This document shows, piece by piece, positions 14,694 through 34,084 of a DNA stretch of 64,000 bases. The notes under the pieces are model-generated. The model searched no databases. It was given only the letters and a program-made list of their open reading frames with translations, and was not told the DNA's origin. The position numbers were made by a program, and so were the translations under genes. Source of the stretch: Nitrosarchaeum sp. (lineage in GTDB: Archaea; Thermoproteota; Nitrososphaeria; Nitrososphaerales; Nitrosopumilaceae); assembly GCA_965223865.1 (NCBI GenBank), contig OZ245020.1, forward strand, positions 864,001 through 928,000, written 5' to 3'. Within the stretch, counting starts at the first letter, position 1; the number at the start of each line of letters is the position of its first letter.

Positions 14694-15377
14694 GTGAGTG
14701 ATGTCTTACTAATACAGAATACTCGAATTGAAGGTTCTGGATATTTGGGCGAATTATTAAAACAAGATGGTTTTGAACTTTATTCTGTTCATGCAAAAAC
14801 AGAAAAACTCCCTGAAAAAGATTTCTCACTAGTAGTTATTTTAGGTGCACCAGAAAGTGCAAATGATGATTTAACATATCTATGGGAAGAACAAAAACTT
14901 ATCAAAAAAAATGTAGAAAAAAATACTCCCGTGCTTGGGATTTGTTTGGGTTCTCAATTAATTGCAAAAACATTTGGAGCCAAAGTATATTCTGGTCCTA
15001 AAAAAGAAATTGGCTTTTATGATGATTTAATTCCAGATGGAAACTCAAAATTGTTTTCAGGGTTTGAGAATCCTTTTACTGTTTTTCATTGGCATGGTGA
15101 TACTTTTGATTTACCGACAAAAGCAGTTCGCCTTGTTTCTTCACAGAATTATTCAAACCAAGCATTTCAAATAGGTTCAGCAGTTGGACTTCAGTTTCAT
15201 TTAGAAGTAAATACGGAAATGGTGAATCTTTGGTTAGATAAAACTAAAGAAAAGTTAGAAAAACTTCAGTACATTAAACCTGATAAAATTCGAGCAGATA
15301 TTGATAAAAATATTCCAATTGTCAAAAACAATATGAAGAATTTTTACAATAATTTTAAAACATCTTTCGATCTTTGA
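14694..15377 (+). CDS. Class I glutamine amidotransferase-like protein
   Basis: LGICLGSQL nucleophile elbow; QFHLE. Confidence 0.9.
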   Translation: MSDVLLIQNTRIEGSGYLGELLKQDGFELYSVHAKTEKLPEKDFSLVVILGAPESANDDLTYLWEEQKLIKKNVEKNTPVLGICLGSQLIAKTFGAKVYSGPKKEIGFYDDLIPDGNSKLFSGFENPFTVFHWHGDTFDLPTKAVRLVSSQNYSNQAFQIGSAVGLQFHLEVNTEMVNLWLDKTKEKLEKLQYIKPDKIRADIDKNIPIVKNNMKNFYNNFKTSFDL

Positions 15378-25112: not shown

Positions 25113-26150
25113 CTACATCTTTGGATCTAGACCTTTAGCTAATCTTAGAGCATCTATGAGCCCATCAGCATATCCAATACTCAATATTGCTACTTCATCT
25201 TGGCCATCTTCCAGAAACTTTTCTGCATCTTGAATATACAATTCAGCATTTTCCAAAATTATTTGAAATTCTTTTTTGTCTTTGTAATATGGTTCTATCT
25301 CTCCTAATGCCTCTCTTATCATTGGCACATATTTCCTCATCATTTGTTTTGATATCTTTATTGTATACTCAGAATTGTCTATTGGCTCGTCAAGACATTT
25401 TGAAAATATTTTCAGAGCGTCTGATTCTGTAAAGTGTAATCTTCCTGTAATTATTATTGTATGTGGTGGTTTCCCAAAGTCTGTTTTCTTTAGATTTGAA
25501 ATTTTTCCAGAAACTATTGATTGATTTTTAAATCCAATTCTTGATGCAACGATTGCATACGTTGATTGATTAATAACATTTCTTCTCTGACCTTTTTCAG
25601 TTTCAATTAATCCCAAAAGAGCATCTTTTGGATCCAAGAAAAAGTCCTTGTCTTGATTATATTCTAGTAATAATACAGTGTGATTTCCTTCTATGATGTT
25701 TTTGTAAATGATATAGTAGGGTGTTGTAAGGGATTTCATTTCACTCATTATGGTTGCAATTCTTCCAACTTTGTAAAAATGAAGACCACATTCCCCTATA
25801 AGTGAGGTAAGTGAAGAGGCTGCATGAATTGAATATGTCTTTATTTTCTGCTCAATTGCTCTTGCCCTTAATTCAATATGAGTTGTTGCAATATATGGAT
25901 CCCCGTATGATAATAATACTGTTTTTTTCTTTTTTGCATTTTGTAAAATCTCATTTCCATCTTCTACTAGCCATCTTTTGGCAGGTTTGAATTTTCCTTT
26001 AACCAATTTTTTGATTTTTGTAAAATCTGATTTACCAATTGGACTGGTGAATTGTTCAAGGTATACGATATCTGCTTTTGCTAAGATATCTATTGCCTCA
26101 ACTGAAATCGATTTTGAACCTGAAACTCCAAGTCCTATAAACCAAAGCAT
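25113..26150 (-). CDS. dph5: Diphthine synthase with C-terminal DUF357-like domain
   Basis: LWFIGLG, YLEQFTS, GDPYIATTH, HTVLLLE; C-terminal YIQDAEKFL...YADGLIDA. Confidence 0.92.
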   Translation of the reverse strand: MLWFIGLGVSGSKSISVEAIDILAKADIVYLEQFTSPIGKSDFTKIKKLVKGKFKPAKRWLVEDGNEILQNAKKKKTVLLSYGDPYIATTHIELRARAIEQKIKTYSIHAASSLTSLIGECGLHFYKVGRIATIMSEMKSLTTPYYIIYKNIIEGNHTVLLLEYNQDKDFFLDPKDALLGLIETEKGQRRNVINQSTYAIVASRIGFKNQSIVSGKISNLKKTDFGKPPHTIIITGRLHFTESDALKIFSKCLDEPIDNSEYTIKISKQMMRKYVPMIREALGEIEPYYKDKKEFQIILENAELYIQDAEKFLEDGQDEVAILSIGYADGLIDALRLAKGLDPKM

Positions 26151-27277
26151 TACTGCATCTTTCTATCATGGAGTCTTTTTAAGTGCTGTAGAGTTTTCTT
26201 GAGAATTTCAATTCCTCTGAGATATTCATCAATTGAAACCTTCTCATCAATAGTATGGGCCTCATGAGGGTCTCCAGGACCATATGTTACCACTGGTATA
26301 TTCCATTGGTTTCCAATTACATTCATGTCTCCTGTACCAGTTTTTCTGATTAATGTAGGTCTTGAATGCTCTGTTTCCATTATTCCCAAAGTAAACGCTC
26401 TTACAAGCGGCGAGTTATGTGGAGCCTCAAAGGGTTCTGTTTCATCGAGAATTGAATAAAATACTTCGACATCTCTTTTCTCTGCAATTTCTTTTACAAG
26501 ACTAGAAATTTTTTGTTCTACAGATTTGCAATTCATATCTACTGGAATTCTAATGTCGAAAGTTGAAACACATTCTTTTGGTGTAACATTGTGACTTGTA
26601 CCCCCGTTAATTTCAGTTAAAGTTACAGTTAGCAACATACCTTTTGTTCTGTTTTCTTGTCCTGATTCCAAACTTTCTTTGAACTCTTTTACAAATATCA
26701 TTGATTCTTGAATTGCATTTTTTGAAAGCCACGGAGCACTTGCATGTGCACTATCTTGAACACTTACCTTGAGATTTATTGCCAGTCTTCCTTTGTATGC
26801 GATTGTAACTTGTTTAATTCCACTTGGTTCTCCAAAAATCGCATAATCTACATTCATATCATTTTTAACCAAATTCTTGATTCCTGTTGCGTTTCCTTCT
26901 TCATCTACTGCACCGACAAATGTAACCGTTCCATTGTTGTTTTGAATTGATGCAGCTGCAAAAAGCATTGCCATTAATGGTGCCTTTGCATCTGATGCCC
27001 CTCGTCCATAAAGAGAATCTCCTTCTTTTCTCACCTTTACTTTTCCTGGAACTACATCCATGTGTCCACAAAGGAGAATTTTTGGGGAACCTGATCCTTT
27101 CTTTGCAATGATGTTACCAACTTCATCAATGTGAATATCTTCAAATCCTAAATCATCACATTTGTCAGCCAAAAATTCTGCCATCGGCTTTTCGCTTAGA
27201 GATGGGGTGTAAAGCTTTAGTGCTTTTTCAAGCATCTTCACGGCAAATCTTGGTGTTACAGTAAACGTTGTGTCCAA
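26150..27277 (-). CDS. lysK: [LysW]-lysine/[LysW]-ornithine hydrolase (M20)
   Basis: GHMDVV, GRGASDAKA, DEE, KTGTGDMN, YGPGD..AHT; context. Confidence 0.9.
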   Translation of the reverse strand: MDTTFTVTPRFAVKMLEKALKLYTPSLSEKPMAEFLADKCDDLGFEDIHIDEVGNIIAKKGSGSPKILLCGHMDVVPGKVKVRKEGDSLYGRGASDAKAPLMAMLFAAASIQNNNGTVTFVGAVDEEGNATGIKNLVKNDMNVDYAIFGEPSGIKQVTIAYKGRLAINLKVSVQDSAHASAPWLSKNAIQESMIFVKEFKESLESGQENRTKGMLLTVTLTEINGGTSHNVTPKECVSTFDIRIPVDMNCKSVEQKISSLVKEIAEKRDVEVFYSILDETEPFEAPHNSPLVRAFTLGIMETEHSRPTLIRKTGTGDMNVIGNQWNIPVVTYGPGDPHEAHTIDEKVSIDEYLRGIEILKKTLQHLKRLHDRKMQ

Positions 27278-27283
27278 TTCTTA

Positions 27284-28129
27284 TTATTTTGATTTGAGGG
27301 CATAATCAAGCATTAATGAAGGGATATCAACACTACATACTCGAACTGTATTTTTGTACTCTGTTGTGTTATTGACCTCATGAACCACTAATCCTCTTTC
27401 ATCACTTTCCATCAAATCTACTCCTACTATGTCTCCTTGAACTGCATTTTTTGCCTTAATACACATTTCTTCCATCTCGGGTGTAACTTTACACTCTTCT
27501 GCTATTCCTCCCAAAGCCATGTTTGTTTTCCAGTTTCCACTTCCCGAAGTTCTATAGATAGCTGCAACAATTTTATCTCCTACCATAATTGCTCTAATGT
27601 CTCTTGGGGGTCGTTTGACAAATTCCTCTAAATAATGAATCTGATAAATTGGATACATGTTTTCCCTGCTTTCAATAATTCCTTCTGCAGAATCCTTGTC
27701 ATTCAATTTTGAAATTAATCTCCCCCAACTCCCAACAGTTGGTTTTATTACTTTTGGATATCCTTGTGTCTCGAGTGCCTCTAAAGCTGCATCTTTAGAA
27801 AATGCAACCGTTGCATATGGTGTTGGAACTCCTAACTTTTTCAGAAGCATATGTGTGAAAAGTTTGTTTCCTGCAAAAATTCCTGTATTTAGACAATTAA
27901 TTACCTTAACTCCTAACCCTTCTAATGCTGCAGTAGAGTGCAAGTTTCTGTAATAACTAACACATCTCTGAATAACTACTCCATAATCTTCTGGTTTTTT
28001 TTCTAATTCTACAGCTAATTTTTTACAATCAACCATCTGAATATTGATATTATTTTTTTTACCTGCCTCTAAGAGTGCCTTTTCTTCCCAACGGATGGTA
28101 TCGTAAAGAATTGTAACTTCAGGGCTCAC
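27284..28129 (-). CDS. lysX: alpha-aminoadipate--LysW ligase (ATP-grasp)
   Basis: GSWGRL loop, WKTNMALGG, EVNNTTEYKNT (Asn-type LysX signature); GTG start overlaps the lysW stop; next to homocitrate synthase. Confidence 0.88.
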   Translation of the reverse strand: MSPEVTILYDTIRWEEKALLEAGKKNNINIQMVDCKKLAVELEKKPEDYGVVIQRCVSYYRNLHSTAALEGLGVKVINCLNTGIFAGNKLFTHMLLKKLGVPTPYATVAFSKDAALEALETQGYPKVIKPTVGSWGRLISKLNDKDSAEGIIESRENMYPIYQIHYLEEFVKRPPRDIRAIMVGDKIVAAIYRTSGSGNWKTNMALGGIAEECKVTPEMEEMCIKAKNAVQGDIVGVDLMESDERGLVVHEVNNTTEYKNTVRVCSVDIPSLMLDYALKSK

Positions 28130-28293
28130 TGTCCCCAATCCTCGCCAACCGTTTGGGCAGGCTTGAGATCGAAACCATCTGAACCTTTTGCTAATTCAAA
28201 ACTTGCGCCGCATTCCGGACATGTTACAATTTCTCCCTCCAATGCATCACTTGGAATTGAAATTTCTGCATCGCATTCTTCACATTTTGACAT
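28126..28293 (-). CDS. lysW: LysW amino-group carrier, lysine-branch copy, C-terminus EDWGQ
   Basis: Hand-translated MSKCEECDAEISIPSDALEGEIVTCPECGASFELAKGSDGFDLKPAQTVGEDWGQ. Confidence 0.92.
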   Translation of the reverse strand: MSKCEECDAEISIPSDALEGEIVTCPECGASFELAKGSDGFDLKPAQTVGEDWGQ

Positions 28294-28315: not shown

Positions 28316-29482
28316 TTATTTGTCATTAATTATCTTTTTTTCAAGTCGGTCCTCAAGTGGAATCTCAATGAGATCTCCCATTCTTAGTCCTTTGAGACCT
28401 GAAGCCACTGCTTTTGCATGCTCATCATCTTTTTCCAGTCCTAACAAAGACATCAGGTAAGCAGCACCTGTTTTACCTGCCAGTTCACCAAATACAATCC
28501 TCCTTCTATTCCCTACAGCTCGTGGCGGGATTGGTTCATAGGCTGCGGGATTTCTGAGAATTGCTGCAAGATGAGTTCCTGCTTTGTGTTTGTATGCTGA
28601 AGAACCAACAATTGGTTTAGAGTCATATGGTTTGATTGATGTGTATTCCTCAATAAGTCTTGACAAATCTAGAAGCATATCTAGTCTGAAGTCATTTGGT
28701 GATTTGTATAGGTATGTTAATGCAACTGCAACTTCGGCAAGGGGTGGAATTCCTGTTCTCTCACCAATTCCATCAATCGTGGTATGAATTTGGTCAACTC
28801 CTGCATCACATGCAGCAAATGCATTGGCAACAGCAAATCCAATATCATTATGAACATGTGCATCAAGTGGTACATCAATAACTTCTCGCACCTTTTTTAC
28901 AAAATTATACATCCCGATAGGACGAAGAATTCCAACAGTATCTGGCAAACTAATTCTGTCTACTCCAGCATCTTCAATGGCTTTACACATATCAAGTAAA
29001 AATTCTGGTTCTGCCCTACTCCCATCTTCTACTGTAAATCTTATTTTTAATCCATGAGATTTTGCATATTCTACGGTTTCAACTGCTCTTTCCATTGCTT
29101 TTTCTCTTGAAATTCTTAACTTGTCTTTAAGATGAATATCTGAAATGCCAAGATAAGCAGCACACCATTTTGCATCACAACTTAATGAAACGTCAATGTC
29201 TTCTTTAAGTGCTCTACCATGTGAGACAATGTCTGCTTTTAACCCTTGTTTGATGATAGTTTTAGTTGCTTCTCTGTGATCATCTGAAACAACTGGTGAG
29301 ATTTCTATTTGATCTACTCCAAAATAATCTAGCATCCATGCAATTTGGATTCTTTGCTTGTTGGTAAATGAAACTCCTGGATGTTGCTCTCCTTCTCTCA
29401 GAGTGCTGTCTAGTACTCTAATTTTCTTTGGATTTTTTTCATATGCATTGTACAGATTTGCATAGTGATTCGGATCTTTCAT
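28316..29482 (-). CDS. Homocitrate synthase (DRE-TIM family)
   Basis: LDSTLREGEQ, HVHND, GIGERTG, HKAGTH; lys cluster context. Confidence 0.85.
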   Translation of the reverse strand: MKDPNHYANLYNAYEKNPKKIRVLDSTLREGEQHPGVSFTNKQRIQIAWMLDYFGVDQIEISPVVSDDHREATKTIIKQGLKADIVSHGRALKEDIDVSLSCDAKWCAAYLGISDIHLKDKLRISREKAMERAVETVEYAKSHGLKIRFTVEDGSRAEPEFLLDMCKAIEDAGVDRISLPDTVGILRPIGMYNFVKKVREVIDVPLDAHVHNDIGFAVANAFAACDAGVDQIHTTIDGIGERTGIPPLAEVAVALTYLYKSPNDFRLDMLLDLSRLIEEYTSIKPYDSKPIVGSSAYKHKAGTHLAAILRNPAAYEPIPPRAVGNRRRIVFGELAGKTGAAYLMSLLGLEKDDEHAKAVASGLKGLRMGDLIEIPLEDRLEKKIINDK

Positions 29483-29523: not shown

Positions 29524-29599
29524 GTACTAAGGTCGTTTTATTTTGTAATTATTGATCCTAATTTAGTTAGTAATTTTAAAAATGAAACGAAAGTCGTTC
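29524..29599. promoter_or_regulatory. Two LysM-like boxes (GTACTAAGGTCGTTT 29524-29538; AAACGAAAGTCGTTC 29585-29599) upstream of the TATA box of the hcs-lysW-lysX-lysK unit
   Basis: Semi-palindromic 15-mers; the proximal box abuts the TATA-like TATATTTATA (minus strand, about 29509-29520). Confidence 0.55.
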
Positions 29600-30018
29600 T
29601 AGGCTATTTTTCTTAGAATAATGACAGTATTGGTGTCAATTACTCCTGGAATTTTTCTTAGTGCGTCAATACTATTATTGATTTCTGTAATGTTTGATGC
29701 ACTGATAATTGTCGTAATGTCGTACTGTCCAGTAATTTCGTATACTACCTTTACACCATTTAGTTTTGCAAGTTTTGCTGATACCTTGGATGTGTCAGTT
29801 GCTGAATCCACTGATACTAAAACAATTGCGCTTGTTGTATTTTCTTCTCCAAGTTCTAAAGTGAACTTTTTGATTGTACCATTATCTACGAGTTGCTTTA
29901 CTCTTCTTCTTACAGCTGATTCAGAGAGCTTTAGCTTCTTTCCAATATCTACAAATGACTCTCTAGAATCCTCTTTAAGGTATTCGATAATTTTTTCATC
30001 AACTTTATCCTTGTACAT
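29599..30018 (-). CDS. lysM: HTH-type Lrp-family regulator LysM
   Basis: DKVDEKIIEYLKEDSRESF...LSESAVRRRV; YEITGQYDI; context. Confidence 0.88.
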   Translation of the reverse strand: MYKDKVDEKIIEYLKEDSRESFVDIGKKLKLSESAVRRRVKQLVDNGTIKKFTLELGEENTTSAIVLVSVDSATDTSKVSAKLAKLNGVKVVYEITGQYDITTIISASNITEINNSIDALRKIPGVIDTNTVIILRKIA

Positions 30019-31186
30019 TACGAATTTCTTCCTCCTTAGTAAGTACAATATCTAGTGTTTGTAAAACCTTTGCTATGTCTTCTTCAGATATTACTAAGGG
30101 CGGTAAAATTCTAAGAATATTTCTTCCTGAATATAGCATCAAAACTCCTTCTTTGATTAGGTTCATGAGGATGTTTCTTACTTCAAATTTTAACTCAACC
30201 CCTATCATTAGGCCTTTTCCTCTGATCTCTCTTATTATGGTGTGTTTTTCTTTTAGACTTTCTAATCCTTCTTTGAAAATCCTTCCCATTTTTTCTGAAT
30301 TTTCAATCAACCCATCTTCAGTTATTGCTTTTAGTGCTGCAATTCCTGCTGCGCAAGAAAGTGGATTTCCTCCAAACGTTGATGAATGTTCTCCCTTGCT
30401 AATTGAAGCAAGAATATTTGATCTGACAAGTGTTGCTCCCATTGGAACTCCTCCTGCAATTCCCTTTGCAAGACACATGATGTCTGGTGCTGTATTCCAA
30501 TGGTCACAAGCCCATAATCGACCTGTTCTTCCTAAACCTGCTTGAATTTCGTCAAAAATCAGAAGAATTCCTTTTTCATCACATAGTTTTCTAACTTCTT
30601 GCAAGAATCCCTCTGGAGCTACATTAATTCCACTCTCCCCTTGAATTGGTTCTAGAATTACAAATGCTGTATCATCATTTACTACAGAACGAAGTTCATC
30701 AACATCTCCAAAGGATACATATGAAACTTTTTCAACTAGTGGCGCAAATGCTTTTCTATATTTTGGATTAAAAGTCAAAGAAAGTGCTCCAAATGATTTT
30801 CCATGATATGATCCTTTCATTGCGACCATTCCTTTTTTTCCGGTGAACTTTCTTGCAAACTTCATTGCAGCTTCTACTGCTTCTGCACCACTGTTGTTAA
30901 GATGCACTTGAGTCAATCCTTTTGGTGCAAGACCAATTAGTTTTTGCAAAAATTCTTCTCTTGTTTTATTGTAAAGTGAGCTATGGACCGTAATTATTTT
31001 GTCTACTTGATCTTTAATAGCTTTGTTTACTTTTTCATTTTGGTGTCCAACAAGTGCTACTCCATATCCGCCCATACAATCAATGTACTCTTTTCCATCA
31101 ACATCCCATACATGAGCTCCTTTTCCTTTTTCAATAGTAACTGGAAATCTCTGATACAGATTTCCCATAAATTGATCTTCACTCAT
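30005..31186 (-). CDS. lysJ: [LysW]-aminoadipate semialdehyde/glutamate semialdehyde transaminase
   Basis: NSGAEAVE, EPIQGESG, DEIQAGLGRTG, LAKGIAGG. Confidence 0.92.
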   Translation of the reverse strand: MSEDQFMGNLYQRFPVTIEKGKGAHVWDVDGKEYIDCMGGYGVALVGHQNEKVNKAIKDQVDKIITVHSSLYNKTREEFLQKLIGLAPKGLTQVHLNNSGAEAVEAAMKFARKFTGKKGMVAMKGSYHGKSFGALSLTFNPKYRKAFAPLVEKVSYVSFGDVDELRSVVNDDTAFVILEPIQGESGINVAPEGFLQEVRKLCDEKGILLIFDEIQAGLGRTGRLWACDHWNTAPDIMCLAKGIAGGVPMGATLVRSNILASISKGEHSSTFGGNPLSCAAGIAALKAITEDGLIENSEKMGRIFKEGLESLKEKHTIIREIRGKGLMIGVELKFEVRNILMNLIKEGVLMLYSGRNILRILPPLVISEEDIAKVLQTLDIVLTKEEEIRNVQG

Positions 31187-31982
31187 GTTTTATCACAGTA
31201 CAGTTATCATGAGAAATCGCTGATGATATAGGGTTTTCTTTTTGTCCATTTGCAATAATTGCTTCTTTTACTCCCATGTCAAGTGCTTCAGTAGATGCTA
31301 AGATCTTTTTTTCCATTCCTGGTCCAATCTTTGGTCTGATTTCTTTTGCTTCAGCCAAAGTAAGATTTGTAACAAGTTTGTCATCCATTAATAGACCATC
31401 CACATTTGTAATGAACAGAACCTTGTCTGTCCCAACTTTTCCTGATACATATGCTGCTGCTCTATCTCCATCTACATTGAGAAATTCTGATTCTTCACTT
31501 ATTGCAATTGGTGATATTACTGGAACGAGGCCCTGATCAAGCAATGATCTGATAAATTCAGCATTAATATCGGTTATTTTTCCTGTATATCCACCATCTA
31601 TTGCCTGTTTTCGGCCCTTTTCATTGACAATCAGAAGTTTCTTTTTTCTATCTGCTTGAATGATTTTTGCATCAACTCCGGATAACCCTATGGCGTTTAT
31701 TCCATTTTTTTGAAGCATCTGAACAATTGTTTTGTTGATTCTACCTGACATTACCATTGTGAAAATTTCTGCAGTCTCTTTGTCAGTATATCTACTCTTT
31801 ATTCCACTTGGTGATGTAACAAACTTTGGTTCTTTTCCTAGCTGTTCACAAACTTTGGTAACTTCTTTTCCACCACCGTGAACTAAGATGAGTCCTTCAG
31901 TTTCTGCTACTTTTTTTATGTCTGCAATAGTTGACGGATGTAAATTATCTACTACACTTCCACCAATTTTGATAGTGATCAT
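31179..31982 (-). CDS. lysZ: [LysW]-aminoadipate/glutamate kinase
   Basis: IKIGGS, VHGGG, SRYTD, NVDGDRAA, GMEKK. Confidence 0.92.
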   Translation of the reverse strand: MITIKIGGSVVDNLHPSTIADIKKVAETEGLILVHGGGKEVTKVCEQLGKEPKFVTSPSGIKSRYTDKETAEIFTMVMSGRINKTIVQMLQKNGINAIGLSGVDAKIIQADRKKKLLIVNEKGRKQAIDGGYTGKITDINAEFIRSLLDQGLVPVISPIAISEESEFLNVDGDRAAAYVSGKVGTDKVLFITNVDGLLMDDKLVTNLTLAEAKEIRPKIGPGMEKKILASTEALDMGVKEAIIANGQKENPISSAISHDNCTVIKHE

Positions 31983-31984
31983 TT

Positions 31985-33031
31985 CTATACTGGTGTAAGT
32001 GGTGTGTATCTTAGGCCATCCATTTCATTAAAACCGCACATTACATTCATGTTTTGAATGGCTGAACCTGCTGCGCCTTTCATGAGGTTATCTGAGGCAG
32101 ACAATGCAATCAATCTGTGATTGTCTTCATCAAGATCAAAACCAATATCACAAAAGTTTGAACCAACCAAAAATTTTGGATCTGGGAATTTGTACAAACC
32201 TTTTTTATCTCGAATTAACCTGACAAATTTCTCCTCGCCATAATTTTGACGATAAATTTTCCACAATTCCTTTTCCTCAACTTCTTTTTTCATAAATGTG
32301 TGATTCGTACACAATATTCCTCGAACTACGTCTACTGCATGAGGACTCATAGACACATGAATCTTCTTTCCTGCAATCTCGCTTAACTCTTGTTCTATCT
32401 CACCAGTATGTCTATGCTTTGCTGGTTTATATGGTCGAATAACTCCTGCTCTCATTGCATGTGCTGTTCCTGAACCGGAACCTGCACCTGATGAACCAAT
32501 CTTTGAATCAACTACAATGTGATCAGTATCAATAAGATCATTTTTGATTAATGGTGTAAGAGCAAGCATTGATGTTACTGCCATGCATCCTGGACAAGAA
32601 ACTAGTTGAGTTTTTTTGATTTCTTCTCTGTGCAGTTCTGGTACTCCAAATACTGACTTTGAAAGGTAATCAGGATGTGGATGCTCCCATCCATACCATT
32701 TTCCGTAATCCTCAGGATTGTGTAATCTGTAATCTGCGCTCAAATCAATAATTTTGATTCCTCTGTCATACAGGGCTTTTACAATCTCAGTTGCTGTTCC
32801 ATGTGGGACAGCAGTAAAGACAAGATCGCATTGGTCTGAAATTTTATCATAATCTAATTCAGAAAATGTCAAATCTGTAAACCCCTTCAAACTTGGCTGA
32901 ACTCTGTGAAGGTATTCTCCAACATGTTGCCTTGAGGTAACAGTTGTGATCTCAACATCGGGATGATTTACAAGTAAACGTAGTGTTTCTCCTCCTACAT
33001 ATCCTGATGCTCCAACAACACCTACTTTCAT
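31985..33031 (-). CDS. lysY: [LysW]-aminoadipyl/glutamyl-phosphate reductase (ArgC family)
   Basis: GASGYVGGE, DLSADYR, CPGC, HRHTGEI, DNLMKGAAG. Confidence 0.93.
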   Translation of the reverse strand: MKVGVVGASGYVGGETLRLLVNHPDVEITTVTSRQHVGEYLHRVQPSLKGFTDLTFSELDYDKISDQCDLVFTAVPHGTATEIVKALYDRGIKIIDLSADYRLHNPEDYGKWYGWEHPHPDYLSKSVFGVPELHREEIKKTQLVSCPGCMAVTSMLALTPLIKNDLIDTDHIVVDSKIGSSGAGSGSGTAHAMRAGVIRPYKPAKHRHTGEIEQELSEIAGKKIHVSMSPHAVDVVRGILCTNHTFMKKEVEEKELWKIYRQNYGEEKFVRLIRDKKGLYKFPDPKFLVGSNFCDIGFDLDEDNHRLIALSASDNLMKGAAGSAIQNMNVMCGFNEMDGLRYTPLTPV

Positions 33032-33059: not shown

Positions 33060-33917
33060 TTATTTCCTAACGTGGTTTAGTGCAAATTCTACCATTTCTT
33101 TTGGAATATTTCTTTGAGCAACTCTGGCCAATCCTTTGAATTCAACAGTGTTGTTGACTTCGTGAACAACAAGACCATTTTCTTCATCTTCCATCATATC
33201 AATTCCTAAAATGCCTCCACCCATTGCTTTTGATGCCTTTGAGGCCATGTCCTCCATCTCTTTTGAAATATCACATAATTCAGGATCGGCACCTAATGCA
33301 ATGTTTGTTTTAAATCCTCCTGAAGACTTTCTATACATTGCTGCAATTGGTTGATCGCCTATTGTAATCACTCTAATGTCTCTTGGTGGTCTTTTTACTA
33401 ATTCTTGAAGGTAGTAAATTCTATCATGTGGACTATCGGTAATGTCTCTGATTTCAGATACTGCATCCATTGCATCCTTGTCTTTTATTGGCATTACTCC
33501 ACGGCCCCAACTGCCAATGACTGGTTTTATTACCATTGGATATCCTACTTTTTCTATATTCTTAGCTGCACTTTGACTTGAAAATGAAAAATATGTTTTG
33601 GGAGTCGGAATGTTATGTTTTTTCAAAAGTAATGTCATAAACATCTTGTTTCCACAAAGATTTGCGACATCAAATTTGTTAAAGACTGGAACATCCATAA
33701 ATTCTAGACTGGCGGTAAAATGAAGTCCTCTAAAATAGCTAATACATCTTTCTAGTACCACATCTCCAAAGTCAAAATCATCCTTCTTACTATCTGTGTT
33801 AATCTGGGTAATTTTTGCATCAAGCATCATTGTATCATGTCCAAGGTTAGATGCCTCTTTTTGAAGCATTTTTTCTTCCGTTCTAAGACGGTCAAACACA
33901 ATACAAACTTTGGACAT
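33060..33917 (-). CDS. argX: Glutamate--LysW ligase (ATP-grasp)
   Basis: GSWGRG, FKTNIALG, EVNNTVEFKGL (Gly-type ArgX signature); downstream of argG. Confidence 0.82.
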   Translation of the reverse strand: MSKVCIVFDRLRTEEKMLQKEASNLGHDTMMLDAKITQINTDSKKDDFDFGDVVLERCISYFRGLHFTASLEFMDVPVFNKFDVANLCGNKMFMTLLLKKHNIPTPKTYFSFSSQSAAKNIEKVGYPMVIKPVIGSWGRGVMPIKDKDAMDAVSEIRDITDSPHDRIYYLQELVKRPPRDIRVITIGDQPIAAMYRKSSGGFKTNIALGADPELCDISKEMEDMASKASKAMGGGILGIDMMEDEENGLVVHEVNNTVEFKGLARVAQRNIPKEMVEFALNHVRK

Positions 33918-34084
33918 TACTCTCCCCAGTCTTCGCCTACGCTTTCTGCTTGTTTTAGCTCAACATTTGATCCGTCTTTTTTGGCGATTTCAAAGTCAGC
34001 ACCACAATCAGGACAGGAAATAATTTCTCCTACTGAGGCATCGTCTGGGATGTTTAGTTTTGCGTCACATTCTGGGCAGTTCAT
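33917..34084 (-). CDS. lysW: LysW/ArgW amino-group carrier, arginine-branch copy, C-terminus EDWGE
   Basis: Hand-translated MNCPECDAKLNIPDDASVGEIISCPDCGADFEIAKKDGSNVELKQAESVGEDWGE. Confidence 0.93.
   Translation of the reverse strand: MNCPECDAKLNIPDDASVGEIISCPDCGADFEIAKKDGSNVELKQAESVGEDWGE

What the first reader, a model, noticed from the sequence alone, without database searches (positions are those of the whole stretch)
28126..28293. Lysine-branch LysW carrier ends in Gln (EDWGQ) instead of the catalytic Glu
Seen: the unannotated 55-aa lysW between homocitrate synthase and lysX ends GAG GAT TGG GGA CAG TGA (EDWGQ), whereas the second copy ends EDWGE. Established: LysX/ArgX join the substrate amine to the gamma-carboxyl of the C-terminal Glu of LysW, and Gln has no such carboxyl. 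Inference: if real, this carrier needs a maturation step (deamidation), uses different chemistry (the C-terminal alpha-carboxyl), or acts as a non-carrier regulator. Any of these would be an undescribed variant of amino-group-carrier biology. It is only one base from GAG, so a sequencing error must be excluded.
Basis: partly seen in the sequence, partly recalled or inferred. Interest (0 to 1): 0.75.

Follow-up and report, generated by a model that had tools for sequence, protein, structure and literature searches.

The report
Glutamine-ended LysW carrier in ammonia-oxidising archaea
A tiny carrier protein that ammonia-oxidising archaea use to build lysine ends in glutamine instead of the glutamate that every studied carrier uses as its attachment point; this ending is conserved, so the carrier probably has to be switched on by removing an amide group first.

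Summary
Window 28126-28293 (-) encodes a 55-aa LysW ending EDWGQ. The second copy, 33917-34084 (-), ends EDWGE. The Gln ending occurs in 155 of 301 genomes of the order, only in the four families that carry amoA and in none of 134 genomes of the other 16 families. Both CAG and CAA encode it. Inside the ammonia oxidisers both paralogues switch between E and Q at least 7-9 times, and no other residue was ever seen. Some genera have only Q-ended carriers, and one has a single Q carrier serving both LysX and ArgX. The Q form must therefore be a working carrier, not a regulator. LysY, LysZ and LysK are single-copy and shared by both carriers, and LysX shows no substitution that tracks E versus Q partners. 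The best reading is a pro-carrier whose Gln is deamidated to Glu before first loading, as PupQ is by Dop. LysK, which cleaves the same kind of gamma-glutamyl amide, is the default candidate, but this is inferred. No paper found mentions this ending.

The parts
28126..28293 (-). lysW (lysine-branch amino-group carrier), 55 aa, four zinc-ribbon Cys (C4, C7, C25, C28), ends EDWGQ
   Evidence: NF041070 88.2 bits over cut-off 75; solved LysW 3vpb_E E 3.4e-10
28129..28131 (-). CAG codon for the C-terminal Gln55, the position of the attachment Glu in studied LysW
   Evidence: aligned with the terminal E of 3vpb, 3wwl and 5k2m; no listed read difference here
27284..28129 (-). lysX (ATP-grasp ligase, GSWGR motif present); GTG start overlaps the lysW stop as GTGA. 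An upstream TTG at 28138 is the alternative start
   Evidence: TIGR02144 323 bits over cut-off 275.6
26150..27277 (-). lysK, M20 [LysW]-lysine/ornithine hydrolase; single copy in the genome; candidate Gln55 deamidase (inferred)
   Evidence: TIGR01902 284 bits over cut-off 163.1, NF003367 283.8 below cut-off 363; single tblastn hit in G000; 5xoy_A E 6.4e-54
28316..29482 (-). homocitrate-synthase-like gene directly upstream of lysW-Q
   Evidence: TIGR02146 377 bits, below cut-off 413.55, so named from context
29599..30048 (-). LysM-type Lrp regulator
   Evidence: NF040947 192.5 bits over cut-off 180
30005..31186 (-). lysJ/argD aminotransferase, shared by both carriers
31179..31982 (-). lysZ/argB kinase, single copy, shared
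31985..33031 (-). lysY/argC reductase, single copy, shared
33060..33917 (-). argX-like second ATP-grasp ligase (GSWGR present)
   Evidence: TIGR02144 291.4 bits; groups with arg-linked ligases in the tree
33917..34084 (-). second lysW/argW, 55 aa, ends EDWGE
   Evidence: NF041070 92.4 bits
34081..35280 (-). argG, head of the arginine-side cluster
   Evidence: NF005458 175 bits below cut-off 250; its distribution does not follow Q

Best explanation
The gene encodes a real, working amino-group carrier made as a pro-form. Its C-terminal Gln55 cannot be loaded as such. The side-chain amide is hydrolysed to give Glu55. After that, LysX attaches alpha-aminoadipate to the gamma-carboxyl, and the shared LysZ, LysY, LysJ and LysK enzymes process it as in Thermus and Sulfolobus. 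Each later cycle starts from Glu, so deamidation is needed only once per molecule. The most economical deamidase is the pathway's own release enzyme LysK, because Gln is the same gamma-glutamyl amide with NH3 in place of lysine. This mirrors Pup, where Dop both deamidates PupQ and removes Pup from its targets. Shown here: the Gln is real, conserved, selected at the amino-acid level and present on carriers that must function. Inferred: the deamidation step. Speculative: that LysK performs it.
For: 1. Real and conserved. The EDWGQ-stop pattern is in 155 of 301 genomes of the order: f1 72/73 plus G000, f15 73/73, f9 7/11, f4 2/9, and 0/134 in the other 16 families. Gln is written CAG or CAA (f15: 14 CAG, 10 CAA), while neighbouring synonymous sites vary freely.
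2. Must be functional. Only 23 of 73 f15 genomes have any EDWGE-stop. Protein searches find two Q-ended LysW and no E-ended one in G112, G176, G142, G053, G241 and G196, and a single Q-ended LysW in G038, G088 and G205. In G038 the layout is argG-argX-lysY-lysZ-lysJ-lysM-hcs-lysW(Q)-lysX-lysK. ArgJ was found in 0 of 5 such genomes.
3. E and Q are interchangeable and nothing else is allowed. At least 9 changes of the partner's end occur on an 81-row ligase tree, 7 of them forced by starred branches. All combinations occur. Other end residues were zero among 112, 120, 197 and 77 LysW ends; these sets partly overlap.
4. Same chemistry downstream. LysY, LysZ and LysK are single-copy in G000 and serve both the E and the Q carrier.
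5. The ligase does not 'see' the difference. In 52 LysX sequences and 6 independent E-versus-Q contrasts, no column changes consistently and none discriminates. GSWGR is kept in both ligases.
6. Independent parallel. In another lineage, Q-ended LysW (L176-L178) sits in arg clusters whose last gene is an EgtC-like Ntn gamma-glutamyl-amide hydrolase or glutaminase fold instead of M20 LysK.
7. Precedent. PupQ is deamidated by Dop, which is also the depupylase (PMC8599861, passages read).
8. All 40 LysK of ammonia oxidisers share 5 substitutions against 11 LysK of non-oxidisers (a sixth differing position, 40, is not uniform among the oxidisers). One of the five is Ser95, next to the invariant Asp96.
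Against: No deamidation has been observed, and no mass or activity data exist. M20 enzymes are not known to me as primary-amide hydrolases (recalled), and LysK would lack the lysine part of its substrate.
If LysK in general could do this, Q should appear wherever LysW occurs. Yet 0 of 134 genomes of the non-amoA families in this order have it, and 21 metagenomic E-type clusters with M20 lysK were seen against 0 Q-type ones.
The LysK substitutions specific to ammonia oxidisers lie on a single branch, so they are not independent evidence.
If Q were merely tolerated it should drift. Instead, in f1 the lys-linked copy is Q and the arg-linked copy E in all but 2 of 74 genomes. This points to a function of Q that the model does not explain.
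The lack of ligase adaptation is also compatible with a ligase that tolerates both ends.
A weak LysA-like match below cut-off exists in the four f15 genomes. Lysine by another route is therefore not excluded there; the argument for those genomes rests on arginine.
Confidence: 0.55

Rival explanations
1. LysX and ArgX use the Gln carrier directly. The ATP-grasp enzyme phosphorylates the amide oxygen, or uses bound phosphate, and the substrate amine displaces ammonia. This gives the usual gamma-glutamyl isopeptide, or an amidine, without a separate deamidase.
For: It needs no extra enzyme, which would suit the recurrence of Q in unrelated lineages. In Dop's glutamine-synthetase-like site, the amide oxygen of PupQ is proposed to attack ATP (PMC8599861, passage read). 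Either ligase can have a Q partner.
Against: No ATP-grasp enzyme is known to me to activate an amide (recalled). LysX partnered with Q and with E shows no consistent substitution in 6 contrasts. Q is absent from 134 genomes of the sister families that have the same ligases.
Confidence: 0.15
2. A dedicated deamidase not yet recognised converts Gln55 to Glu. It is not LysK and not the class I GATase. The pro-carrier idea holds, but the enzyme is different.
For: In this order Q is restricted to the amoA-bearing families, which suits a factor specific to that group. The other Q lineage has a glutaminase-type hydrolase in its cluster.
Against: No candidate was found. G000 has no stand-alone class II GATase. 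The class I GATase does not track Q. No extra conserved gene lies in the cluster.
Confidence: 0.14
3. The ligases attach the substrate to the alpha-carboxyl of the last residue, as the related RimK does on protein S6. The side chain may then be Glu or Gln.
For: LysX and ArgX also score as RimK-family ligases (TIGR00768, 280 and 258 bits). A free alpha-carboxyl is present on both E and Q ends.
Against: The single LysZ, LysY and LysK would face adducts of a different geometry from those in every studied system. If the side chain were idle, residues other than E and Q should appear, and none does. The EDWG motif and GSWGR motif are unchanged (PMC10433800). In the other Q lineage the release enzyme has the fold of a gamma-glutamyl-specific hydrolase.
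Confidence: 0.08
4. The stand-alone class I glutamine amidotransferase at 14694-15377 is the LysW-Gln deamidase.
For: It is a glutaminase-type fold without a synthase partner. It lies 6-13 kb from the lys cluster in several f1 genomes and in G027.
Against: It was not found at E <= 1e-10 in Q genomes G009 and G016. In Q genome G082 the only hit is a 522-aa GuaA-like frame at 2.2e-9. It is present in 9 of 9 E/E ammonia oxidisers tested and in E-only G037 and G028.
Confidence: 0.03
5. Artefact or dead gene: a sequencing error, a pseudogene or a non-carrier regulator, with the E copy doing all the work. Alternatively the Gln codon is read as Glu through Glu-tRNA(Gln).
For: GAG is one base away. 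Archaea make Gln-tRNA via Glu-tRNA(Gln) (recalled).
Against: It is conserved in 155 genomes with both Gln codons and confirmed in contigs of 4 runs. Genomes with Q carriers only exist. Misreading would affect all Gln codons and give too little carrier.
Confidence: 0.02

Closest known systems
LysW/ArgW amino-group carrier proteins of Thermus thermophilus, Sulfolobus and Thermococcus (PDB 3wwl, 3vpb, 5k2m)
   Same: About 55 aa, a four-Cys zinc ribbon, an acidic tail EDWG-x at the very C-terminus, the gene next to lysX, and shared LysZ/Y/J/K enzymes.
   Different: The last residue is Gln, not the Glu whose gamma-carboxyl is the attachment point. E54A in Natrinema ArgW gives arginine auxotrophy (PMC10433800, passages read). 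All three solved LysW end in E.
Pup and Dop of actinobacteria (PupQ deamidated to PupE before ligation)
   Same: A small protein is conjugated through the side-chain carboxyl of its C-terminal Glu. Some species encode Gln and others Glu. In Pup, the enzyme that removes the cargo also deamidates the Gln form (PMC8599861). The E/Q alternation among relatives is seen here too.
   Different: There is no homology. Pup is disordered and its enzymes are glutamine-synthetase-like, whereas here the ligase is ATP-grasp and the hydrolase M20. No deamidation has been shown for LysW.
RimK, which adds Glu to the C-terminus of ribosomal protein S6
   Same: LysX and ArgX belong to the same ATP-grasp subfamily (TIGR00768). 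The target is a protein C-terminus.
   Different: RimK uses the alpha-carboxyl, whereas LysX in studied systems uses the gamma-carboxyl (PMC10433800).
EgtC, the Ntn hydrolase of ergothioneine synthesis (PDB 4zfj, 4zfk, 4zfl)
   Same: The 220-aa protein ending the arg clusters of the other Q-type lineage has this fold (TM 0.72-0.76, E 2e-11) and starts Met-Cys. The title of 4zfk shows that EgtC was solved with glutamine. That EgtC cleaves a gamma-glutamyl amide is recalled.
   Different: The NCBIfam EgtC score is far below cut-off (52 against 218.65 bits). The protein is not present in this window's genome.

Membership tests
LysW/ArgW amino-group carrier protein (NCBIfam NF041070, Pfam PF21344) | Profile score above the curated cut-off | tested here: met
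   NF041070 88.2 bits against 75. TIGR01206 (bacterial lysW) gives 32.8, below 53.2.
LysW/ArgW amino-group carrier protein (NCBIfam NF041070, Pfam PF21344) | Small zinc ribbon with two CxxC pairs | tested here: met
   C4, C7, C25 and C28 in the 55-aa product; aligned with solved LysW.
LysW/ArgW amino-group carrier protein (NCBIfam NF041070, Pfam PF21344) | C-terminal EDWGE motif whose last Glu gives the gamma-carboxyl for attachment | tested here: not met
   It ends EDWGQ. The motif definition comes from PMC10433800.
LysW/ArgW amino-group carrier protein (NCBIfam NF041070, Pfam PF21344) | Gene linked to lysX and to lysZ/Y/J/K | tested here: met
   hcs-lysW-lysX-lysK, with lysJ, lysZ and lysY within 5 kb. 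The same layout is found in relatives.
LysW/ArgW amino-group carrier protein (NCBIfam NF041070, Pfam PF21344) | Covalent loading by LysX and release by LysK | not testable with these tools
   Needs biochemistry or mass spectrometry.
Pro-form conjugation tag of the PupQ type (works-like comparison, not homology) | The C-terminal residue alternates only between Gln and Glu among relatives | tested here: met
   At least 9 switches on the ligase tree. No other residue occurs in the sets.
Pro-form conjugation tag of the PupQ type (works-like comparison, not homology) | An enzyme deamidates the Gln form before ligation | not testable with these tools
The candidates are only inferred.
Pro-form conjugation tag of the PupQ type (works-like comparison, not homology) | Sequence or fold relation to Pup, PafA or Dop | tested here: not met
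   LysW is a zinc ribbon, LysX is ATP-grasp and LysK is M20.

The most novel reading that the evidence does not exclude
Amino-group carrier proteins have a second, so far unrecognised state: a Gln-capped pro-carrier that selection maintains as a licensing switch. The enzyme that releases the product also uncaps new carriers. That enzyme is M20 LysK in ammonia oxidisers and an EgtC-like Ntn hydrolase in another lineage. Carriers therefore enter the cycle only when release is possible. This would be an independent reinvention of the Pup/Dop logic in primary metabolism. The boldest variant is that LysX itself transamidates the Gln amide, which would be new chemistry for an ATP-grasp enzyme.
Probability: 0.3. 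Interest if true: 0.9.

Novelty: new variant of a known kind. Interest (0 to 1): 0.78.

Why it matters
The C-terminal Glu is treated as the defining, essential residue of LysW-type carriers (PMC10433800). This work shows that a globally abundant group, the ammonia-oxidising archaea, routinely encodes Gln there. Some genera have no Glu-ended carrier at all, yet they must still make arginine and probably lysine through this pathway. Either a maturation step is missing from the textbook pathway or the ligation chemistry differs, and both options can be tested directly with a few recombinant proteins and one mass measurement. There are practical consequences too. Metabolic models and annotation pipelines that gap-fill the pathway (PMC6038301) overlook a needed step. 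Heterologous use of these carriers would fail without the activating enzyme. The side finding of an EgtC-like hydrolase in place of LysK suggests an unrecognised release enzyme for this pathway family.

Tried and rejected
Sequencing error: rejected.

Non-carrier regulator: rejected by the Q-only genomes.

Class I GATase as deamidase: its distribution does not fit.

A stand-alone class II GATase or EgtC-like gene in G000: none. tblastn with the three metagenomic proteins gave nothing below E 0.98. PF13230 and PF13522 hit only three long frames of 478, 588 and 593 aa.

Ligase adaptation to Q: none found.

LysK substitutions specific to ammonia oxidisers: real, but they lie on one branch and are also present in E/E oxidisers. 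They are only a lead.

Taxonomic origin of the non-AOA Q-type LysW: mostly not resolved. The genome-contig scan with alignment A1 returned 80 loci, all but one labelled Nitrososphaeria-type; the exception is L128. The search for homologous proteins with P0143 found only P0143 itself. Two ESM Atlas calls gave no taxa. The profile search A2 gave a few names: Melioribacteraceae for P0343 and 'archaeon' for P0271. That profile was built from 5 Q and 2 E sequences, so its 33 Q of 120 is biased.

DAP route in Q-only genomes: TIGR01048 gave below-cut-off matches (236-255 bits against 297.9) in the four f15 genomes and none in G000, so this is not settled.

Complex prediction was not used, because LysW with LysX or LysK is a textbook pair and a pass would not separate the models.

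Literature: 'EDWGQ' gave 0 papers. 'LysW' with 'deamid' gave 1 paper, judged from its listing only. 'LysW' with 'C-terminal' and 'glutamine' gave 19 papers (16 listed), none relevant by title or abstract. 'LysW' with 'Thaumarchaeota' gave 3 papers, and passages of PMC6038301 were read. One search was a loose two-of-four-terms search; none of its 15 listed papers holds 'LysW'. The key LysW papers in subscription journals are not in the library, and supplements are closed. An earlier mention cannot therefore be excluded.
Full report
OBSERVATION. The minus-strand ORF 28126..28293 encodes a 55-aa protein with two CxxC pairs. It ends ...GEDWGQ, with codons GAG GAT TGG GGA CAG TGA. The TGA overlaps a GTG that is the likely start of lysX (GTGA); a TTG nine bases further up is an alternative start. 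NCBIfam calls the protein LysW/ArgW (NF041070, 88.2 bits, cut-off 75). It calls the downstream genes LysX (TIGR02144, 323 bits) and an M20 LysW-lysine hydrolase or deacetylase (TIGR01902, 284 bits). The upstream gene is homocitrate-synthase-like but below cut-off.

The whole minus-strand layout is argG, lysW(EDWGE), argX, lysY, lysZ, lysJ, lysM, hcs, lysW(EDWGQ), lysX, lysK. In the window's genome there are exactly two lysW, two ligases, and one each of lysY, lysZ and lysK. Both carriers therefore feed the same downstream enzymes.

NOT AN ERROR. The best-hit orthologue ends EDWGQ in 27 of 29 loci from relatives: all 24 genomes of the same family, plus G027, G032 and G038. G035 and G036 end in E. 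Of the 120 nearest protein clusters, 112 end EDWGQ and two more end VDWGQ or DDWGQ. One cluster, P0021 (89% identical, 24 contigs), ends EDWGE. Five carry run-on tails from gene callers. Contigs of four runs from three studies cover the site. The listed rows show variation at 28132 and at 28118-28125 but not at 28129-28131; 36 rows were not displayed.

DISTRIBUTION. A DNA pattern for EDWGQ plus stop was found in 155 of 301 genomes sampled from the order. By family: f1 72/73 plus the window's genome, f15 73/73, f9 7/11, f4 2/9, and 0/134 in the other 16 families. The pattern also admits TGG in the stop position, which gave at least one false site, in G038. The matching pattern for EDWGE plus stop is in 225 of 301, but in only 23 of 73 f15 genomes.

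Archaeal amoA (PF12942) is present in 27 of 28 Q-bearing genomes of the 41-genome set. The one miss, G002, is 60% complete. It is present in none of the 13 single representatives of the other families. All 10 tested f4 and f9 genomes have amoA, including seven with E/E carriers. Within this order, then, Q was seen only among ammonia oxidisers, but not every ammonia oxidiser has it. Record titles of the genome-contig scan identify the f15-type sequences as Nitrososphaera, Nitrosopolaris and Nitrososphaeraceae.

BOTH PARALOGUES SWITCH. Reading the carriers and their neighbours in 95 loci gives every combination:
- lys-linked Q with arg-linked E: the window, most of f1, f15 genus g52, f9 g27, f4 G027 and G082;
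- the reverse, arg-linked Q with lys-linked E: f15 g70 and g79;
- Q/Q: f15 g67, g56, g45, g78, g75, and f1 G023;
- E/E: f1 G279, f9 g54 and g63, most of f4;
- a single Q-ended carrier and no arg-linked copy: f15 g33 and g76.

On a FastTree of 81 ligase sequences, the partner's end residue changes at least 9 times, 7 of them forced by well-supported branches. No residue other than E or Q ends any LysW seen, although single-base neighbours of GAG and CAG would also give K, D, G, A, V, R, L, P and H. The counts are 93 E and 19 Q of 112, 87 E and 33 Q of 120 (biased profile), 47 E and 150 Q of 197, and 72 E and 5 Q of 77.

Gln is encoded by CAG and CAA. In f1 the neighbouring Asp and Gly codons are saturated with synonymous change (GAT 14, GAC 14; GGG 14, GGA 11, GGC 3). 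Even so, the lys-linked end stays Q and the arg-linked end stays E in all but two of 74 genomes.

WHAT THIS EXCLUDES. A dead gene or a pure regulator is excluded, because genomes with only Q-ended carriers still have ArgX, LysX and the full enzyme set and no ArgJ (0 of 5). A below-cut-off LysA-like frame in the f15 genomes leaves lysine by another route formally open there.

It is absent from Q genomes G009, G016 and G082. It is present in all nine E/E ammonia oxidisers tested and in two E-only non-oxidisers.

MECHANISM. In studied systems the substrate amine is joined to the gamma-carboxyl of the terminal Glu. The EDWGE tail is read by a GSWGR motif of the ligase, and E54A abolishes function (PMC10433800, passages). 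Both ligases here keep GSWGR. Three results point to the same linkage being made on a Glu that arises from the Gln:
- the single LysZ, LysY and LysK handle adducts of both an E and a Q carrier;
- LysX sequences partnered with Q or with E show no consistent difference in six independent contrasts;
- only E and Q alternate.

This is the pattern of Pup. Some actinobacteria encode PupQ and others PupE, and Dop both deamidates PupQ and removes Pup from targets (PMC8599861). By the same logic the release enzyme LysK, which hydrolyses the gamma-glutamyl amide to lysine or ornithine, is the simplest candidate. One slow turnover per carrier molecule would be enough.

Two hints support this, neither decisive. 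First, all 40 LysK of ammonia oxidisers, E/E ones included, share A58, K/R60, S95, Y/H274 and L/I297 against 11 LysK of the other families. S95 directly precedes the invariant Asp96 of GRGASDAK, where Thermus LysK has Val. That Asp96 is a metal ligand is my recollection of the M20 family. Second, in an unrelated, unidentified lineage, Q-ended LysW sits in argH-argG-argF-lysW-argX-lysY-lysZ-lysJ clusters. Their last gene is not M20 LysK but a 220-aa protein starting Met-Cys. Its model (pLDDT 84.8) matches the Ntn hydrolase EgtC best (TM 0.72-0.76, E 2e-11). That fold is the glutaminase domain of class II amidotransferases. In the same scan, 21 E-type clusters carried M20 lysK. One E-type cluster (L184) carried the Ntn gene.

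AGAINST THE MODEL. Nothing shows deamidation. If M20 LysK in general could do it, Q should not be missing from 134 sister-family genomes. The strong conservation of 'one Q, one E' in f1 suggests that Q has a role of its own, such as licensing or flux partition, that the model does not explain. Direct use of the amide by the ligase, an unknown deamidase and alpha-carboxyl ligation all remain possible.

NOVELTY. No paper in the searchable library contains EDWGQ. The searches combining LysW with deamidation, glutamine or Thaumarchaeota gave nothing relevant. The SCM1 metabolic model mentions only the arg-linked LysW and gap-fills the lysine branch (PMC6038301). Subscription papers and supplements could not be searched. 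I rate this a new variant of a known kind. It is widespread in an ecologically dominant group, it recurs elsewhere (P0343 labelled Melioribacteraceae, P0271 'archaeon'), and it can be tested directly.

Noticed in passing
L176:7668-8333, L177:8407-9069, L178:4870-5535, L184:11198-11857: An unidentified non-AOA lineage has arg clusters (argH-argG-argF-lysW-argX-lysY-lysZ-lysJ) ending in a 220-aa Met-Cys-start protein with an EgtC-like Ntn hydrolase fold instead of M20 LysK. Three of the four have Q-ended LysW. It looks like a non-orthologous release enzyme for the carrier pathway.
   Followed up: partly
L045-L048 with L057, L059, L060 (f15 g70); L042 with L055 (g79): In these Nitrososphaeraceae genera the arrangement is the reverse of the window: the arg-linked carrier ends in Q and the hcs-linked one in E.
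   Followed up: yes
L032 (G038:C1:2638300-2658299): This genome and its genus lack the arg-linked lysW altogether. argG is followed directly by argX, and the only LysW, which is Q-ended, sits next to lysX.
   Followed up: yes
window 26150-27277 and LysK of relatives (L262-L309): LysK of all 40 ammonia oxidisers examined shares A58, K/R60, S95, Y/H274 and L/I297 against 11 LysK of non-oxidiser families. S95 is next to the invariant Asp96.
   Followed up: partly
L128 (NZ_DATCVJ010001056.1, 1504 bp): A short contig of a MAG labelled Chitinophaga carries a Nitrososphaeraceae-type Q-ended lysW. This is probably a binning contaminant.
   Followed up: no
window 25113-26150 (-): The diphthine synthase (dph5) ORF is 345 aa, whereas the profile covers only residues 1-250 (258-position model). 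It therefore has a C-terminal extension of about 90 aa with no family match.
   Followed up: no
G033:C1:1233015-1234103 and G010:C11:317536-318654: In G033 (f10) the LysK match lies in a 627-aa open frame, a possible fusion. In G010 the LysK match contains one in-frame TAA.
   Followed up: no
P0006, P0018, P0026, P0029: Some database entries extend LysW past its TGA stop into the lysX region (…EDWGQW…). These are gene calls made with a TGA-reading code, and they hide the true C-terminus.
   Followed up: no
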